Notes under the pieces: model-generated
What the model saw: only the letters and a program-made list of their open reading frames with translations
Database searches by the model: none
Told to the model about the DNA's origin: nothing
Position numbers and translations under genes: made by a program
Source: Escherichia coli
Lineage (GTDB): Bacteria; Pseudomonadota; Gammaproteobacteria; Enterobacterales; Enterobacteriaceae
Length of the DNA stretch: 64,000 nt
NCBI RefSeq assembly: GCF_044324875.1
Contig: NZ_CP172185.1
Strand: one strand, 5' to 3'
Part shown: one piece after another, positions 45,205 to 59,926 of the stretch
How the letters are laid out: each line of letters begins with the position of its first letter
How positions within the stretch are numbered: the first letter of the stretch is position 1

Positions 45205-45407
45205 AACCTCACTCCCAGCGGACGACGGCGACGTCGGGTTGTCCCCAGTACCGACTCCGCATCATTGATCGCCCGGTTAAGCTCATCCAGAGAAGCCGCC
45301 GTATATTCAATTCTGCGACCATCTTTCTGGACAGACACCACCCGTTTACCGGTTAATAAATCAAGGCGCGCCTGACGCAGCGCCTGCAGTTCAGCGACTG
45401 TAACCAT
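45201..45407 (-). CDS. Head-tail joining protein (lambda gpW-like)
   Basis: 68 aa, same length as lambda W. Confidence 0.85.
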   Translation of the reverse strand: MVTVAELQALRQARLDLLTGKRVVSVQKDGRRIEYTAASLDELNRAINDAESVLGTTRRRRRPLGVRL

Positions 45408-47319
45408 TCACTCCTCCGGACAGCTTCGCTGCCAGTTCTTTAAGGGTTGGCCGGGTCGTCTCTTCTTCCCGGGATTTTGCCAGTACAGCCAGATCAAGCT
45501 GCCAGCGTTGCACGGACACACGTAATGCCGCGTAGGCATACACCAGGCAGTCCAGCGCTTCGTTACGCCGCTTTTTGTTATCCCACAGCAGACGCATCTT
45601 TCCTTTTTCCCACTTCTCCACAAGCTCTTCCGCGACCAGTTGCTGCGCCTCTGTCTGCGAAAAAATCTCCGGATCATCAGGAAAACGGATAGCATACGAC
45701 GTGGATTCATCCGCAGGCGTGGGAGCGGCTTTCATACGGGCATAGAGAATTTCTTTTGCGGTGTCTGTCCCCACTTCACACAGATACACGCCCCGCTGAT
45801 TGCGGGTTTTTGGCATGGTGATCACCGGCTTGCCATAGACAGATGCGCCTTTTACCGGCAGCACCCGGAAAACACCGTGTTTTTTTGACCTCTGATAAAC
45901 GATTTCTCCATCGATCCCCCCGATGTCCCAGCAGACACGGGAAATGGTCATTTCGGTTCCGTCTGCATGGCAGTATTTTTTGTTGATCGCTGCATCCACA
46001 CGTAACAGCGTCTCTTCCTCATCGGGACGCCCCATAATAATGATTTTATCCACCAGAAAGGCTTCCTCTCCCGGAGCCCATCCCCAGACATACATCTCAA
46101 AACGGTTTCGCTGCGAGTCAATGCCCGCCGTCAGATAAACCACCCGGGCAGGCACCGCCGCCGTGTAACGCACAACCTTATCCATCAGTACCTGGTGATC
46201 GAGTTTTTCGCCCACGGCCTCTTCCCAGGTCTCGCCCAGCGTGGTGTTCACAAAGGTTTTCAGGCCGTTGGGATCTTTCAGTGCATCCAGCCAGTCATAG
46301 ACTATCTGTACCCAGGTGGTGAACGGACTGTACGCCGTCCAGATATGGAAAGTGATGGAGCGCGGCGGCGGAATTTCATCACCCCGGGCGCTGAAAAACA
46401 TCAGGCCGTCACGGGTCCACATCCCCGTGTTTTCACAGATCCACCGCCCGTTACTCTGGTCAAGCTCAGACTGATGGATCACACAGCCATGATGCTCACA
46501 AAGGTAGAAAACGCTTTCGGGGCTGTCCTTCTCCCATTTAAGGCCAAAAGGCGTGGATTCATCGCCAAATTTCAGATACTGCGCCTCCCCACAGTGCGGG
46601 CAGGGCACATAAAAACGCATGAAATGTGCCGACTCGTTAGCGGCTTTTTCGATCTGGCAGGAGCCTTTGATTTTAGGCGTCGAGCCGCGAATGGATTTTG
46701 GCCATACAGAGCCCTCAATACGCTTATCCCCCAGCAGGGTTGGCGAGCCCTCTTTTTCAACATCAGGTTCAAACGATGAGAGTTCGTCATAGCAGACCAC
46801 GTCCACGGATTTTTCACGGTAGTTTTTTGCTGCCGCACCACCCAGGCACCAGAAGCCCACACCCGATGAAAAGCGTTTCAGCGTGAGAGTATTGTCACGA
46901 TGTTTACGCCCCAGCCATGGAGAAAGGTCTTTCAGACATGACACATCCCGAATCGTCGCCTCCACGTGAGACTTCATAAAATCTTCAGCGGCAGAATCCG
47001 TGGGCTGAAAAAGCAGACTGTTTCGGGATTTATGCTCAATAAAATACCCGACCACCCCCAGCAACATCTTTGTATAACCAATACGGGCAGATTTAATCAG
47101 GTTAACAGTGCGAATCAGATCGTTGCCCATACAGTTCATGATGGCGATCTGGAACGGCAGCGTTTTCCATTCTCCCTCACCATATGAAGATTCTTTAGGC
47201 AGATAATAATTTTGATCAGCCCATTCAACTGCCGTCACCGGCAATGCCCTTATCAGGGGCTGTAATGCTGTTGTGACAGCACTCATCATATTATTCAGTT
47301 GTTGCTCTGATATATTCAT
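45391..47319 (-). CDS. Terminase large subunit (lambda gpA-like)
   Basis: Start refined to MNISEQQL (642 aa); conserved blocks match lambda A. Confidence 0.92.
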   Translation of the reverse strand: MNISEQQLNNMMSAVTTALQPLIRALPVTAVEWADQNYYLPKESSYGEGEWKTLPFQIAIMNCMGNDLIRTVNLIKSARIGYTKMLLGVVGYFIEHKSRNSLLFQPTDSAAEDFMKSHVEATIRDVSCLKDLSPWLGRKHRDNTLTLKRFSSGVGFWCLGGAAAKNYREKSVDVVCYDELSSFEPDVEKEGSPTLLGDKRIEGSVWPKSIRGSTPKIKGSCQIEKAANESAHFMRFYVPCPHCGEAQYLKFGDESTPFGLKWEKDSPESVFYLCEHHGCVIHQSELDQSNGRWICENTGMWTRDGLMFFSARGDEIPPPRSITFHIWTAYSPFTTWVQIVYDWLDALKDPNGLKTFVNTTLGETWEEAVGEKLDHQVLMDKVVRYTAAVPARVVYLTAGIDSQRNRFEMYVWGWAPGEEAFLVDKIIIMGRPDEEETLLRVDAAINKKYCHADGTEMTISRVCWDIGGIDGEIVYQRSKKHGVFRVLPVKGASVYGKPVITMPKTRNQRGVYLCEVGTDTAKEILYARMKAAPTPADESTSYAIRFPDDPEIFSQTEAQQLVAEELVEKWEKGKMRLLWDNKKRRNEALDCLVYAYAALRVSVQRWQLDLAVLAKSREEETTRPTLKELAAKLSGGVNGYSR

Positions 47320-47800
47320 CGAGTAAATCCGGTAATTTATCCCCTGCCCGCGCACACTGATTTGCCCCCTTCGCAATAAGGGTTTTCAGATGGTCAAGAT
47401 GGCGCGGTGTTAAATCAGGAAACTGTCGTTGCATGGATAAAGGGATGGAATCAAGCGTACTGGATAACGCCATTGCCAGCTTGCTGAGGGCAAAAATACA
47501 GAATCCGGTGTCAATAAGTTTTCCTTTTGACACCTCATTTTTTAACTGCTGTGTAACAGCCTGTTCTGCTGTCAGTTCCCATCTGGCAATAAGCAATTTC
47601 TCCTCATAGTCGTCTTCGCTATCGCCATCAGGCACATCGTTTTTACTTCTTCTCAGATACGATATGTAAAAATCACGCCAGGCATCCAGATCCAGTTGCC
47701 CTCGCTTATTCGATATCGGGGCACCCGGCAATTTCTGCAGTCTGCGAAGCTGGCGATCGGTCAGACTCAAATGCCTGGCAACTTCAGTCTGCGTAGCCAC
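47291..47800 (-). CDS. Terminase small subunit (lambda Nu1-like)
   Basis: 169 aa; winged-HTH N-terminus; overlaps the start of A as in lambda. Confidence 0.88.
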   Translation of the reverse strand: MATQTEVARHLSLTDRQLRRLQKLPGAPISNKRGQLDLDAWRDFYISYLRRSKNDVPDGDSEDDYEEKLLIARWELTAEQAVTQQLKNEVSKGKLIDTGFCIFALSKLAMALSSTLDSIPLSMQRQFPDLTPRHLDHLKTLIAKGANQCARAGDKLPDLLDEYIRATTE

Positions 47801-47999
47801 TGTTCACCTCGCAAAAAATCTCCCCTCATGCGTTTTAAACATGCATCTTGCGAGCAACTTTATGCAAACGCACGCATATGTCCGGTTTGTTTGTACATTT
47901 TTTGCACATGTCCGGTTCGCAGAAAGCATGTTTTTATATTTTTCATATAGTTAACTTGCAGAGAAACCGGACATGGATCCCGGAAAATTTTCATAAATA

Positions 48000-48035
48000 G
48001 CGAAAACGCGCGAGGTCGACGCCCCGTAACGGGCC
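48000..48035 (-). other. cos site (cosN cohesive-end sequence GGGCGTCGACCT at 48013..48024, with cosB-like flank)
   Basis: Minus strand reads ttacggggcgtcgacctcgcgcgttttcgctatttatgaaaattttccgg, near-identical to the lambda cos region; 224 bp upstream of Nu1. Confidence 0.8.
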
Positions 48036-48174
48036 GGATTGCCGGAAAGGACCCGAAAAAACGAGAATAATTATCACTTACAGCAAGAATCGAATCTGAT
48101 CTATTCTGATGCTTGCTATTATGTGCCGGCACAAGTGCGTCGTTTACCGTCATTTCACACAGAGGCATCATCAA

Positions 48175-48426
48175 ATGAAAATCAGAAATATTCTCGCTAT
48201 CTCCCTTGCAACATCATCCTTCAGTTGCCTGGCATTTAAACCCTCGCCCAATGTGCTACCAGGACCAACGAATCAACTAACTGCGGTAGAAAGTAAAATT
48301 ATCGGACATTTTTATGCCCCACACAGTGCATTACCCGGAACAACCATCACAGGGACATGTGACGCCTCCCCCATTCCGGGATGCACCTGTCCGTTTTGTA
48401 CTATGCTGCGTAGCCAAAACCGATAA
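48175..48426 (+). CDS. Small secreted Cys-rich protein (signal peptide MKIRNILAISLATSSFSCLA)
   Basis: ATG with GAGG-type RBS; hydrophobic leader; opposite strand to the phage late operon. Confidence 0.4.
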   Translation: MKIRNILAISLATSSFSCLAFKPSPNVLPGPTNQLTAVESKIIGHFYAPHSALPGTTITGTCDASPIPGCTCPFCTMLRSQNR

Positions 48427-48790
48427 CATCCGCATTTACCTGGTATTCCATGATGAGTTCACGCAGCGACTGATAGAGGAAGGAAAGATGGTTAGCAAAA
48501 GCAAAGGCGCATTGCCGCCGCATGCTGCAGGCATTGCAACAGACGAGAGCAGATATTTTTGACCAGTTGGAAAACTGCCAGCATACTTTGCCCGAGCATA
48601 TCGCCATCTCATCGGAAACCAGTGCAACTCTTATTCATCGGGTTACACCAGAGAAAAAGAAGAAATGAACAGTGAGGCGTTGTGTGGCATACAACGCCTT
48701 CTTCCATCATTTCTCGTCAGCCATGACAAAAATATAACCGCTGGCTCTTTCATTTTTCTCCTGCTTCCAGCCCCTCTCTACCTGGAAGCA

Positions 48791-49117
48791 TCAGGGACGT
48801 GATGGCGTAAAGATAAATTGTCTCTTCACTCCCTGACGGGGACTATTCTTTTCAAATCTCCATTTCGCCATGGCCTTCACCACTTCATCACGAAACAAAT
48901 TATGAGGCTCTGAGCGGAGAAAAACGATCCGTGTCACAGTCCCGTCAGCACCAATATCGAACTTAACCTCAACCAGCCCCTTGATATAATTTGCTGCAGC
49001 ATATTCCGGATATCGTGGATACACCGTCACTAATTGCCGGGGCTCATCAGCTTTTTGCTGCGAGCATCCCACTGCCAGGGCAGATAACAGAAAAAGTAGT
49101 GAAAGGCGTCTTTTCAT
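48791..49117 (-). CDS. Lipoprotein with TonB C-terminal-like domain
   Basis: Signal peptide plus Cys (MKRRLSLLFLLSALAVGC); C-terminal 75 aa align motif-by-motif with the E. coli TonB C-terminal domain. Confidence 0.6.
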   Translation of the reverse strand: MKRRLSLLFLLSALAVGCSQQKADEPRQLVTVYPRYPEYAAANYIKGLVEVKFDIGADGTVTRIVFLRSEPHNLFRDEVVKAMAKWRFEKNSPRQGVKRQFIFTPSRP

Positions 49118-49548
49118 TTTTATTCCTACGGGTCTTATTCTGACAATATATCCTGTGTTCCAGACTGCCACATCACCACATCCTGTGCCATTATCTGACT
49201 CACATTACATACATCGCATCAGGATACAGTAGTAGCACTTTCTGTAATACAGCTTCCGGTTTCTTCCACCATCGCACCGGACAGGCGACTATGAGGGATA
49301 AACCCGCGAATCATTAACGCGGTAAAAACCCGGTGTACATCGTTTTTGATTATTCCCGCACACTCGCGCAGAAGGAGTTCCCCGTCGGGCTACGGTTTCT
49401 GTTCATACGGGAATACGGCGACTATATAGCGAATGATGTGTCAGGCTTGAATACCTTTATCCGTTAAAAGGGATATCAATTAAGTTATCCCGTACAGGGT
49501 ATAAGCCATTATCAAAGCCACTCTGTAGCGAATGGCTTTTGTAATGGA

Positions 49549-49998
49549 CTATTTAATTAGTGATGCTGCGTATTCGATTAGATATAACTTAGGTGCCAGC
49601 CAGATTTTTAACCATGTCATATTGGTTACTGCACAAATAATAAAAATCCCCCACATAGTCAAAACTCCAACCAATGGCACGATAAGAAGATTAATATCAC
49701 CTTTGCTATCCCAAACCATTGTCGGCCTGTATTTGGGATTTCCCTTCTCCCATGAATATCCTTCATCACCGATTTTACCTGTCTCAACTCTTTGGCACTG
49801 CTTCTTCATAAACCAGAAAACCAGAGGGATTGTTGAAATGGCTATTAATGTTTTAATCAGGCTATCAACCATATTCCATACCAGCAACTGATGAACAACA
49901 TCCGGAATCTGAGCCTGACTGAATGCAATGGCGGAATCAATTCCATCGCTGGCCTTCTTCAATAAATCAACAAGAATTTTATTTGCTTCTTCTTGCAT
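49549..49998 (-). CDS. Small inner-membrane protein encoded in AT-rich DNA (start at internal Met MQEEANKIL)
   Basis: Two or three predicted TM helices; sharp drop in GC at about 50000; upstream part of the 209-aa ORF is a different, GC-rich reading context. Confidence 0.45.
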   Translation of the reverse strand: MQEEANKILVDLLKKASDGIDSAIAFSQAQIPDVVHQLLVWNMVDSLIKTLIAISTIPLVFWFMKKQCQRVETGKIGDEGYSWEKGNPKYRPTMVWDSKGDINLLIVPLVGVLTMWGIFIICAVTNMTWLKIWLAPKLYLIEYAASLIK

Positions 49999-50174
49999 GT
50001 TTATATCCTGTAAGTTGTAAACCGGTTCGAACAAATAAGTTACCAAGAGAGACAAAGATACCGAGCAACCACGGTCGCACACGATGTTTATCGCAGTAAC
50101 CAGAACTGTCTGTGATTGTACCTGCGCATCCACGCTTACGGCAGGCACGTGGGATTCGTGATGGCATAAATACC

Positions 50175-50375
50175 TCACACCCTGTTCAGTTGAATGACGG
50201 GCTGATTCTCGATATGTTCTGCTGTCAGTCTGAAAGTCACAGTGACTGTTGGTGGCTCGCCTCCGCGTGACTCTGTCCTGGCGGAAAGCTGCCCCTCCAG
50301 TAACTCACCATTAACTGCAATCCCATACCCTGCGAAATGTTTACCGCGATAAAGTTTTGCCAGTTGGTAATTCAT
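50175..50375 (-). CDS. Hypothetical small protein
   Basis: 66 aa ORF translationally coupled (ATGA overlap) to the upstream small ORF. Confidence 0.4.
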   Translation of the reverse strand: MNYQLAKLYRGKHFAGYGIAVNGELLEGQLSARTESRGGEPPTVTVTFRLTAEHIENQPVIQLNRV

Positions 50376-50629
50376 TTGCCTGCATCCTCCAGCGACAACC
50401 CAATTCGCCCATGAAGCAATGTGGCCGATACAATCCCGGCATTACACTCAACGATTATATCTTCATCCGTGGCATCCACTTCATATATTCGTGAATAACA
50501 TTCCGTGCATTTACCACTGAATGTACCTTCAGCCAGAACACGACCACGCTGTAAAATCCGGAACGGGATTCTTCCATTAAAGAGCTTTGCGGTTACCAGT
50601 AATTTCTTCATACATTCTCCTGATAACAA
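50372..50629 (-). CDS. Hypothetical small protein with CxxC pair
   Basis: 85 aa ORF starting 6 bp after Rz stop. Confidence 0.4.
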   Translation of the reverse strand: MLSGECMKKLLVTAKLFNGRIPFRILQRGRVLAEGTFSGKCTECYSRIYEVDATDEDIIVECNAGIVSATLLHGRIGLSLEDAGK

Positions 50630-50634
50630 AAAGG

Positions 50635-51117
50635 CTACTTAATGCACTGAGTGCGGATATACTCCTGTGCCCCTTCCAGTTGCTTCTGCATCGTCATCAA
50701 CCGTTCTCTGAGGGTGAAATAATCCCGTTCAGCGGTGTCTGCCAGTCGGGGGCTGGTTGCATTATCCACGCTGGTGGGTCCGGTGGCTTCACGCACGGCT
50801 TCGGAGCAACTGGCATTGACCCGCAGGCGCTTACGGCCAGCGGCAACATCAGCGCGCAGAGTTTCATTTTCAGCTTTCGCATTGGCTAATTCTCTCGAGT
50901 ACTTTGCATCGAGCGCAGCAACATCACGCTGACGCTGCTGCATGTCAGTAATGGTGGCGGTCGCCTGCTTCAGTTCACTGACTTTTTTATCACGCTGTTC
51001 TTTGTAGGCTATGGCGTTATCACGGTAATGATTGACCGCCAACGACAGGCAGACGATGATGCAGATAACCAGAGCATAAATAATCGCGGCGACTCTGCTC
51101 ACTGATCTATCCCCCAA
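50635..51117 (-). CDS. Rz i-spanin
   Basis: 160 aa with N-terminal TM and coiled-coil; near-identical blocks to lambda Rz. Confidence 0.92.
50697..50882 (-). CDS. Rz1 o-spanin lipoprotein, embedded in Rz in +1 frame
   Basis: 61 aa with lipobox and proline-rich core (…[30 protein letters not shown]). Confidence 0.9.
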
Positions 51118-52977: not shown

Positions 52978-53054
52978 TGGACCGCCACCGGGGACTCGAA
53001 CCCCGCACAGTCAGCTTAGAAGGCTGATGCTCTCTCATGATGAGCTAGTGGCGG
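52978..53054 (-). tRNA. tRNA-Arg (anticodon UCU)
   Basis: Folds by eye: 7-bp acceptor (CCGCCAC/GTGGCGG), D arm, anticodon loop CTTCTAA, T arm CGGGG-TTCGAGT-CCCCG. Confidence 0.7.
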
Positions 53055-53055
53055 T

Positions 53056-53131
53056 TGGTGGCCCTTGCTGGATTTGAACCAGCGACCTGGCGATTATGAG
53101 TCGCTCGCTCTCACCACTGAGCTAAAGGGCC
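53056..53131 (-). tRNA. tRNA-Ile2 (anticodon CAU), ileX/ileZ-like
   Basis: GGCCCTTTAGCTCAGTGGTGAGAGCGAGCGACTCATAATCGCCAGGTCGCTGGTTCAAATCCAGCAAGGGCCACCA; very close to E. coli ileX. Confidence 0.8.

Positions 53132-57483: not shown

Positions 57484-59926
<2,443 letters not shown>

What the first reader, a model, noticed from the sequence alone, without database searches (positions are those of the whole stretch)
47985..48035. cos site nearly identical to lambda, with one substitution in the 12-nt cohesive end
cosN reads GGGCGTCGACCT against lambda GGGCGGCGACCT, and the cosB-like flank is conserved. This defines the packaging origin and the virion genome ends, and marks the genes between cos and Rz as end-of-genome cargo.
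Basis: partly seen in the sequence, partly recalled or inferred. Interest (0 to 1): 0.3.

Follow-up and report, generated by a model that had tools for sequence, protein, structure and literature searches.

The report
Prophage cos site with variant sticky end
This is the DNA-packaging start site (cos) of a lambda-type prophage in E. coli: an ordinary feature, but with a rare natural G-to-T change in the 12-base sticky end and a terminase-binding region unlike that of lambda, 21 or N15.

Summary
On the minus strand, window 48024->48013 reads GGGCGTCGACCT. Lambda and phage 21 both read GGGCGGCGACCT. The 12-mer alone is not significant. The context settles it:
- Phage 21's genome ends align exactly at 48025/48024.
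- cosQ (GGGTCCT) sits at -30..-24.
- Both nick sites are flanked by CG.
- Nu1-family and gpA-family terminase genes start 224 bp downstream.

The conserved flank is the cosN-R3 spacer (32/33 to lambda), not cosB. The real cosB (47878-47974) has three exact ATGTCCGGTT repeats. These are the only copies in 64 kb and match no documented specificity (lambda, 21, N15/Monarch). The adjacent 169-aa small terminase has a different N-terminal HTH. It is 100% identical to that of phage PhiR12_1, and the same repeat layout recurs in 79 of 79 related loci.

G6->T is not a sequencing error. It is a rare allele: 24 of 5,426 complete E. coli genomes, and 1 of 119 unbiased IMG/VR cos sites. It occurs with several cosB types and in PICI cos-rpp sites. 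It lies at bp 6, next to the bp 7-12 zone where published variants cluster.

No isolated phage in the collection carries it, and this prophage holds several IS elements. Function is therefore inferred, not shown.

The parts
48048..48054 (-). cosQ (GGGTCCT), at cos positions -30..-24; packaging-termination subsite
   Evidence: 7/7 identical to lambda, 21 and PhiR12_1 and at the same offset as the annotated cosQ of phage 21.
48011..48026 (-). cosN, 16 bp: CG|GGGCGTCGACCT|CG. The cohesive end is 48024->48013, and the G6->T substitution is at window 48019.
   Evidence: Phage 21's genome ends map to 48025/48024. Rotational symmetry falls from 10/16 to 8/16 because the central bp 6/7 pair is broken. 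The change creates GTCGAC.
47980..48012 (-).
   Evidence: 32/33 identical to lambda, 28/33 to 21, 30/33 to PhiR12_1. A weak IHF-consensus match at bp 30-42 is shared by all four.
47965..47974 (-). R3 core ATGTCCGGTT (bp 51-60), forward orientation; proposed main small-terminase binding site
   Evidence: It is one of only three exact copies in the 64-kb window. It sits at the same offset as R3 of 21 (bp 50-65) and is exact at this offset in 79/79 loci with the same TerS.
47941..47953 (+). Candidate IHF site I1 (TTTCATATAGTTA, bp 72-84, read on the + strand)
   Evidence: It has 2 mismatches to WATCAANNNNTTR, and lies 2 bp from the I1 position of lambda and 21 (bp 74-86). This is weak evidence in AT-rich DNA.
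47908..47917 (+). R2 core ATGTCCGGTT (bp 108-117), inverted relative to R3
   Evidence: The R3-R2 spacing is 57 bp, as between the annotated R3 and R2 of phage 21. It is conserved in relatives.
47878..47887 (+). Third R copy ATGTCCGGTT (bp 138-147), also inverted. In most relatives it overlaps a forward R1-like copy (ATGACCGGTT, bp 146-155), which the window lacks.
   Evidence: 75 of 79 related loci have the forward copy. The window, Ch1, LH50-c, AR_0085 and L021 carry a replaced segment after bp 147, giving a left arm of 224 nt instead of 195 nt.
47291..47800 (-). Small terminase subunit (169 aa, GTG start), Nu1 family with a divergent N-terminal HTH
   Evidence: Pfam Phage_Nu1 matches residues 49-150 only. 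Identity to lambda Nu1 is 46% over residues 73-164 only. It is 100% identical to PhiR12_1 TerS. Profile-profile alignment places the N-terminal HTH in register with Nu1. The model gives strand-helix-helix-wing-helix, and the top fold hits are MerR-type wHTH proteins but are not significant.
45391..47319 (-). Large terminase subunit (642 aa), gpA family; the nuclease that would nick cosN
   Evidence: Pfam GpA_ATPase and GpA_nuclease. 94% identical to phage 21 gp2 and 66% to lambda gpA.
48055..48300 (-). Right-end arm upstream of cosQ, phage-21-like
   Evidence: 240/246 identical to the right end of phage 21, against 136/246 for lambda.
48175..50634 (.). Accessory region between Rz and cos. It holds an 83-aa secreted-looking ORF (48175-48426, +), a TonB_C lipoprotein (48791-49117, -), a membrane protein of phrog_3054 (49549-49998, -), an HNH remnant (49979-50167, -) and small ORFs (50175-50611, -).
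   Evidence: A TonB C-terminal domain gene sits in the same place in phage 21.

Best explanation
Window 47878-48054 (minus strand) is the cos site of a lambdoid E. coli prophage whose head and packaging module is phage-21-like.

Proposed mechanism, by analogy with lambda and 21:
1. Dimers of the adjacent 169-aa Nu1-family small terminase bind the ATGTCCGGTT repeats through an N-terminal winged-HTH. R3 lies at bp 51-60 and the inverted R2 at bp 108-117. An IHF-type bend between them probably helps.
2. This positions the gpA-family large terminase to nick cosN 12 bp apart, giving 5' overhangs GGGCGTCGACCT.
3. cosQ, 30 bp upstream, serves termination at the next cos.

The R motif and the TerS recognition helix differ from lambda, 21 and N15/Monarch. 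Packaging specificity is therefore predicted to be a separate class, one that is widespread in Enterobacteriaceae prophages.

The G6->T change is a rare circulating cosN allele. It breaks the central symmetric base pair, 6 bp from either nick, and is probably tolerated by the nuclease. Both ends of one genome are cut from the same sequence, so the ends stay complementary to each other.

Shown here: the sequence anatomy, the homologies, the conservation across relatives and the allele distribution. Inferred: binding, nicking and current activity.
For: - Exact junction with phage 21's genome ends.
- cosQ, the CG flanks and the spacer are conserved.
- Three exact 10-mers are the only copies in 64 kb, all within 100 bp.
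- R3 is exact at the same offset in 79/79 loci with this TerS, and the inverted R2 copy is found in all of them with at most 1 mismatch.
- The R3-R2 spacing equals that of phage 21.
- TerS and TerL families are as expected and the ORFs are intact.
- TerS is 100% identical to that of PhiR12_1, a deposited phage genome whose record names MG1655 as host.
- The N-terminal HTH aligns in register with Nu1.
- The T allele recurs in independent E. coli genomes.
- The T allele occurs with N15/Monarch-type cosB and with PICI cos-rpp.
- bp 6 variants (T or A) make up 3 of 119 unbiased cos sites, while bp 1-5 are invariant.
- Published work states that TerL nucleases are not highly sequence-specific once anchored by TerS (PMC9026076) and that mismatched cohesive ends are viable (PMC4669245).
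Against: - There is no experimental end determination.
- No isolated phage in the 50,697-record collection carries the T allele in any of the three flank contexts tested.
- In this TerS class the T allele is rare (1 of 79). It is linked to variant left arms that have lost the forward R1 copy, which could be decay.
- The prophage carries IS21-, IS66- and IS256-type insertions.
- The IHF site is only a 2-mismatch consensus match, shifted by 2 bp.
- The fold search for the TerS DNA-binding domain gave no significant hit (best E = 0.3).
Confidence: 0.78

Rival explanations
1. Decaying relic: it is a genuine cos by descent but no longer works. On this view, G6T and the loss of the forward R1 copy are mutations accumulated in a cryptic, IS-riddled prophage.
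For: - The prophage holds IS21-, IS66- and IS256-type insertions.
- The forward R1 copy is missing in the window but present in 75 of 79 relatives.
- Related prophages show further cosN damage: TUM9803 reads GGGCGTCGAACT and an O121 strain has a scrambled cosN.
- No isolated phage in the collection carries the T allele.
Against: - The same T is found on at least four different cosB backgrounds, including PICI cos-rpp, and in 24 genomes. Independent decay would not repeatedly give the same base change.
- TerS, TerL, portal, protease and capsid ORFs are full length.
- PMC4669245 describes lambda's R1 as an accessory, non-critical site.
Confidence: 0.18
2. One reading: a lambda-specificity cos, with cosB conserved with lambda, that lambda terminase would recognise.
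For: The interval 47985-48035 is 46/51 identical to lambda, and the spacer at bp 13-45 is 32/33 identical.
Against: - bp 46-224 are 94/179 identical to lambda, with no lambda R sequences.
- The TerS N-terminus shows no similarity to Nu1 by BLAST or Pfam.
- The right arm and TerL are 21-like.
Confidence: 0.02
3. The site is the cos of a phage-inducible chromosomal island (PICI), or a chance or sequencing artefact, rather than a phage cos.
For: PICI cos sites share cosQ and cosN with lambda-like phages, and some carry the T allele. The 12-mer alone is not statistically significant.
Against: - The downstream genes are TerS and TerL, followed by the full head and tail module, not rpp.
- The junction with phage 21's ends is exact.
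- The allele recurs in independent assemblies.
Confidence: 0.02

Closest known systems
Phage 21 cos (OL657228; cosQ, cosN, cosB with R3-I1-R2-R1) with terminase gp1/gp2
   Same: - The right arm is 240/246 identical.
- cosQ is identical.
- The offsets of R3 (about bp 50-60) and the inverted R2 (about bp 108-117) match.
- TerL is 94% identical.
- A TonB_C gene lies in the right-end accessory region.

   Different: - The cohesive end has T at bp 6.
- The R motif is ATGTCCGGTT, not 21's CATGTCGG-type.
- TerS is 169 aa rather than 182 aa, alignable only over the C-terminal ~100 residues at 40% identity.
- The first 16 residues of TerL differ.

Phage lambda cos (cosQ-cosN-cosB; Nu1/gpA)
   Same: - A 12-nt 5' cohesive end, 11/12 identical.
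- cosQ is 7/7 identical.
- CG flanks both nick sites.
- The spacer at bp 13-45 is 32/33 identical.
- The overall layout has TerS and TerL directly downstream.

   Different: - cosB is unrelated in sequence (94/179 identical).
- TerL is only 66% identical.
- The TerS N-terminal domain is not detectably similar.
- The forward R1 copy is absent.

Escherichia phage PhiR12_1 (PV340549) and the widespread 'Qin Nu1-like' small-terminase class of enterobacterial prophages
   Same: - TerS is identical (169/169).
- The R3, R2 and third R copies carry the same motif at the same offsets.
- TerL is 97% identical.

   Different: - PhiR12_1 has the canonical G at bp 6.
- It has the forward R1-like copy and a left arm of about 195 nt.
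- Its right arm upstream of cosQ is different (143/246).

N15/Monarch cos and other natural cohesive-end variants (N15 and phiD326 at bp 9 and 12; Gifsy-1 at bp 8, 9, 11; mEp213/LLS GGGCGGCGCGCT)
   Same: These are natural single- or few-base variants of the lambda 12-mer in lambda-like phages. They are tolerated because both ends of a genome come from the same cos (PMC4669245, PMC12315714).
   Different: - The published variants lie at bp 7-12. This one is at bp 6, in the half that PMC4669245 describes as under selection.
- N15's R3 (GAGGTTGTTGTT) and its TerS N-terminus are unrelated to the window's.

Membership tests
Lambda-like cos site (12-nt 5' cohesive ends) | 12-bp cohesive-end sequence with strong identity to GGGCGGCGACCT | tested here: met
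   11/12 identical, with T at bp 6.
Lambda-like cos site (12-nt 5' cohesive ends) | Conserved CG dinucleotides flanking both nick positions | tested here: met
   CG|GGGCGTCGACCT|CG at 48026->48011. The criterion is taken from PMC4669245.
Lambda-like cos site (12-nt 5' cohesive ends) | cosQ heptamer about 30 bp upstream of the nick | tested here: met
   GGGTCCT at -30..-24, 7/7 identical to lambda and 21.
Lambda-like cos site (12-nt 5' cohesive ends) | Complex cosB: repeated R sequences with R3 near bp 50-65, an inverted R2, and an IHF site between them | tested here: met
   R3 at bp 51-60, inverted R2 at bp 108-117, and a third copy at bp 138-147, all exact and conserved in relatives. The IHF site is only a weak consensus match. 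The forward R1 is absent in the window.
Lambda-like cos site (12-nt 5' cohesive ends) | Nu1-family TerS and gpA-family TerL genes directly downstream | tested here: met
   Pfam Phage_Nu1, GpA_ATPase and GpA_nuclease.
Lambda-like cos site (12-nt 5' cohesive ends) | Virion DNA actually ends here with a 12-nt 5' overhang | not testable with these tools
   This needs virion DNA end sequencing or read-based terminus analysis.
Lambda packaging specificity (cosB-lambda / Nu1) | R sequences and TerS recognition helix matching lambda | tested here: not met
   bp 46-224 are 94/179 identical to lambda. The TerS N-terminus is not aligned by BLAST or Pfam.
Phage 21 packaging specificity | R sequences and TerS recognition helix matching phage 21 | tested here: not met
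   The R motif differs. TerS aligns only over residues 64-166 at 40% identity. TerL is nevertheless 94% identical.
N15/Monarch packaging specificity | R3 GAGGTTGTTGTT-type and an N15-type TerS DNA-binding domain | tested here: not met
   N15's left end and gp1 were compared. The motif differs, and only the C-terminal part of TerS aligns, at 43% identity.
PICI cos-rpp | An rpp gene starting about 100 bp after cosN, no R repeats and no terminase genes | tested here: not met
   The downstream genes are TerS and TerL, and three R repeats are present. A true PICI example, L017, was seen for contrast.

The most novel reading that the evidence does not exclude
Two linked claims. First, G6T is a functional cohesive-end allele at a left-half position that circulates among lambda-like phages of several cosB classes and among their PICI parasites. 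This would refine the published view that only bp 7-12 are free to vary. Second, the ATGTCCGGTT cosB with its Qin-type TerS is a fourth lambda-like packaging specificity that has not been characterised experimentally, although it is very common in E. coli prophages.
Probability: 0.45. Interest if true: 0.4.

Novelty: new member of a known kind. Interest (0 to 1): 0.27.

Why it matters
For annotation, it fixes the predicted virion ends, the strand and the packaging direction of this prophage. It also corrects the assumption that lambda-like cosN implies lambda-like specificity.

More broadly, packaging specificity decides which co-resident prophages and islands can be mobilised by which terminase. 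The accessible literature documents only three lambda-like specificities (lambda, 21, N15; PMC4669245). A very common fourth class would matter for predicting the transfer of prophage-borne genes.

The bp 6 allele is a small natural experiment on how much sequence the TerL nuclease needs at the centre of cosN. It also creates a one-base mismatch whenever a T-allele cos and a G-allele cos bound one packaged genome.

Tried and rejected
- The statistical significance of the 12-mer alone is not above chance. The case rests on context.
- Sequencing error is rejected, because the allele recurs.
- Lambda, 21 and N15 specificities were each tested and not met.
- I first read the cosB layout as R3 forward followed by two inverted copies, as if that were a property of the whole class. 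One search showed that most relatives also have an overlapping forward R1-like copy. The layout lacking it is specific to the window's variant arm.
- No isolated phage with the T allele was found in the window-type, Monarch-type or PICI-type flank contexts.
- The sequence search of TerS against solved structures found nothing meaningful. The fold search gave MerR-type wHTH proteins at the top, but with E >= 0.3, so the wHTH assignment rests on the model topology and on the profile alignment.
- Vahanian et al. 2017 (the cosN natural-history survey) and Feiss et al. 2015 (Virology, N15 cosB) are not held in the library. I could not check whether a bp 6 variant or this cosB class is already catalogued there.
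- No complete E. coli RefSeq genome contains the window's exact cos haplotype. The best match is 98.5% over 331 bp, and 78% coverage of the 51-mer.

Full report
**1. Observation**

The pattern GGGCGGCGACCT, searched with mismatches, finds GGGCGTCGACCT once, on the minus strand at window 48024->48013. Lambda (NC_001416) and phage 21 (OL657228) both begin with GGGCGGCGACCT, so the window differs at bp 6, G->T.

A 12-mer with one mismatch is not significant in 128 kb of two-strand sequence. At <=2 mismatches there are 3 matches against 5.5 expected. The context makes the case:
- A search of the phage collection aligns the last 274 bases of phage 21 at 95.7% to the window, ending exactly at 48025, next to the first base of the 12-mer.
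- cosQ GGGTCCT lies at -30..-24, at 48054->48048.
- CG dinucleotides flank both nick positions.

It is 46/51 identical to lambda.

**2. Anatomy**

Identity by segment, window against lambda / 21 / PhiR12_1:

| Segment | lambda | 21 | PhiR12_1 |
|---|---|---|---|
| Right arm, -276..-31 | 136/246 | 240/246 | 143/246 |
| cosQ | 7/7 | 7/7 | 7/7 |
| Cohesive end | 11/12 | 11/12 | 11/12 |
| Spacer, bp 13-45 | 32/33 | 28/33 | 30/33 |
| bp 46-224 | 94/179 | 100/179 | 137/179 |

cosB proper is not conserved with lambda or 21.

In cosB, the 10-mer ATGTCCGGTT occurs exactly three times, and these are the only copies in the whole window:
- bp 51-60, forward (47974->47965);
- bp 108-117, inverted (47908-47917);
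- bp 138-147, inverted (47878-47887).

The first two sit at the offsets annotated for R3 (bp 50-65) and the inverted R2 (bp 107-122) of phage 21. A 2-mismatch IHF consensus match lies between them at bp 72-84. Lambda and 21 have I1 at bp 74-86. This match is weak evidence.

**3. Genes**

Directly downstream on the minus strand lie the packaging and head genes:
- a 169-aa ORF (47800->47291, GTG start);
- a 642-aa ORF (47319->45391);
- W, portal, protease, decoration and capsid homologues, then tail genes.

Pfam assigns the 642-aa protein to GpA_ATPase plus GpA_nuclease. It assigns the 169-aa protein to Phage_Nu1, but only over residues 49-150. TerL is 94% identical to 21 gp2 and 66% to lambda gpA.

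TerS aligns with the known small terminases only in its C-terminal part:
- lambda Nu1, residues 73-164 (46%);
- 21 gp1, residues 64-166 (40%);
- N15 gp1, residues 59-164 (43%).

The N-terminal ~60 residues hit nothing significant in Pfam or in PDB sequences.

An AlphaFold model built from 22 homologues (mean pLDDT 75) gives strand, helix 4-10, helix 15-22, loop/wing, helix 38-55. The top Foldseek hits are MerR-type winged-HTH proteins, RacA, BldC and an excisionase, but none is significant (best E = 0.3). Profile-profile alignment with a lambda/21/N15 Nu1 alignment runs from residue 4 to the end. It puts QTEVARHLSLTDRQLRRLQK opposite KKQLADIFGASIRTIQNWQEQ of Nu1.

I read this as a diverged Nu1-type wHTH with a different recognition helix. 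That matches the different R motif. The step from sequence to DNA binding is inference.

**4. Relatives**

- TerS is 100% identical to that of Escherichia phage PhiR12_1. That is a deposited phage genome whose record names MG1655 as host. Its cos has the same R motif but the canonical G at bp 6.
- IMG/VR holds 241 loci that encode this TerS.
- In the 79 usable loci of the best 80, R3 is exact at bp 51-60 in all, and the inverted R2 copy is found in all with at most 1 mismatch. 78 carry G6 and one carries T6.
- In 75 of 79, the inverted copy at bp 138-147 overlaps a forward R1-like copy (ATGACCGGTT, bp 146-155). This gives the lambda-like order R3 forward, R2 inverted, R1 forward.
- The window, E. 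coli Ch1, LH50-c, AR_0085 and IMG/VR L021 share a variant arm. In it the sequence after bp 147 is replaced, the forward copy is lost, and the distance to the TerS start is 224 nt rather than 195 nt.
- Homologues of this TerS at 60-80% identity occur in Klebsiella, Salmonella, Citrobacter and Enterobacter. Some sources name it 'prophage Qin Nu1-like'.

**5. The T allele**

- It is in three of the closest E. coli prophages. TUM9803 adds a second change (GGGCGTCGAACT), and an O121 strain has a scrambled cosN.
- The T contigs carry at least four cosB types:
  - the window's type;
  - an N15/Monarch-type with GGTTGTTGT repeats;
  - a type with AGATCC..TTCT repeats;
  - a PICI cos followed at bp 102 by an RppC homologue (E = 1.7e-32 to PDB 6hlk).
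- A 51-nt query centred on the T forces any 28-nt seed to include it. It hits 24 of 5,426 complete E. coli genomes at 33 places, up to 4 per genome, many from poultry. The wider cos region matches about 4,300 genomes.
- A scan anchored only on cosQ, TTACG and the 3' CGCG leaves the 12-mer free. It gave 119 sites: 111 canonical, 5 GGGCGGAAGGCG, and one each of GGGCGACGCGCT, GGGCGACGACCT and GGGCGTCGACCT. Variation was at bp 6-10 and 12; bp 1-5 never varied.

G6T is therefore a rare but real circulating allele. bp 6 behaves as the edge of the variable zone.

**6. Literature**

Feiss et al. 2015 (PMC4669245) report the following:
- N15 and phiD326 differ from lambda at bp 9 and 12, and Gifsy-1 at bp 8, 9 and 11.
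- Mutations in bp 7-12 have little effect, while left-half mutations such as G2C are harmful.
- cosQ and the left half appear to be under selection.
- Genomes with mismatched cohesive ends are viable.
- Only three lambda-like specificities (lambda, 21, N15) are documented.

Other papers add:
- mEp213/LLS has GGGCGGCGCGCT (PMC12315714).
- Murialdo and Feiss 2022 (PMC9026076) state that 10 of the 16 cosN bp are rotationally symmetric and that TerL nuclease centres are not highly sequence-specific.

G6T lowers that symmetry from 10/16 to 8/16 by breaking the central pair.

I could not read Vahanian et al. 2017, the survey of natural cosN variation. Prior description of a bp 6 variant cannot be excluded.

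**7. Functional status**

For activity:
- the packaging and head ORFs are intact;
- TerS is identical to that of a deposited phage;
- the T allele is shared across unrelated cosB backgrounds, including PICIs that depend on helper TerL.

Against activity:
- IS21-, IS66- and IS256-type elements lie in the prophage;
- the forward R1 copy is lost;
- no isolated phage in the collection carries the allele.

I put about 0.78 on 'genuine cos of a distinct cosB/TerS class with a tolerated rare cosN allele', and about 0.18 on 'decaying relic'.

**8. Cargo claim**

Rz (50635-51117) and the embedded Rz1 are followed, towards cos, by:
- small ORFs of phrog_2571 and phrog_10235;
- a truncated HNH gene;
- a membrane protein (phrog_3054);
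- a TonB_C lipoprotein;
- on the opposite strand, an 83-aa ORF with a signal-peptide-like N-terminus and no family.

Phage 21 has bor and a TonB C-terminal domain gene in the same place, and lambda has bor. Calling this a right-end accessory region is reasonable. No function was tested.

**9. Verdict**

This is an ordinary feature, a lambdoid prophage cos. One mildly interesting detail remains: a rare allele at bp 6 of the cohesive end that is shared with PICIs.

Noticed in passing
IMG/VR loci, e.g. L017 9530-10310, L022 1388-2276, L033, L041, L048: Many contigs carry two lambda-type cosN sites in converging orientation, 740-870 bp apart. In L017 the first is a PICI cos followed at bp 102 by an RppC homologue. 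The second, inverted one has N15/Monarch-type R repeats. Both carry the T allele.
   Followed up: partly
window 57999-59800; 22844-25459; 26382-28800; 16332-17492: Several insertion sequences lie in or next to the prophage: IS21-type (rve + IstB) in the early region, IS66-type and a second rve/Mu-transposase-type element between J and the tail-fibre genes, and an IS256/Mutator-type transposase. The prophage may be defective.
   Followed up: partly
window 48175-48426 (+): An 83-aa ORF lies 150 bp from the nick on the strand opposite the late genes. It has a signal-peptide-like N-terminus and a Cys-rich C-terminus, and matches no Pfam or PHROG family.
   Followed up: partly
window 49979-50167 (-): A 62-aa remnant of an HNH endonuclease (phrog_144, N-terminal 33 residues only) lies between Rz and cos. 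The equivalent gene in E. coli strain 135 is annotated as an incomplete HNH endonuclease.
   Followed up: partly
window 52978-53131 (-): Two tRNA genes (Arg-tct and a CAT-anticodon tRNA, annotated tRNA-Ile in a near-identical prophage) lie between Q and the lysis genes. Phage 21 has tRNA genes at the same place.
   Followed up: no
window 18373-19968 (-) and 21284-22780 (-): A YadA-anchor adhesin-like protein (531 aa) and a collagen-repeat tail-fibre-like protein (498 aa) lie at the distal end of the tail region.
   Followed up: no
E. coli genomes (e.g. LH50-c, 4 places): Some genomes hold up to four separate T-allele cosN sites, and many T-allele hosts are poultry isolates. This suggests that the allele spreads among co-resident elements or within one host population.
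   Followed up: no
L009 (E. coli TUM9803) and L011 (O121 strain): The closest relative, TUM9803, has a second cohesive-end change (GGGCGTCGAACT) and a group II intron in the same prophage. The O121 locus has a scrambled cosN (GGGCGGGAGCGGCGCAG) next to the same R3 motif.
   Followed up: partly
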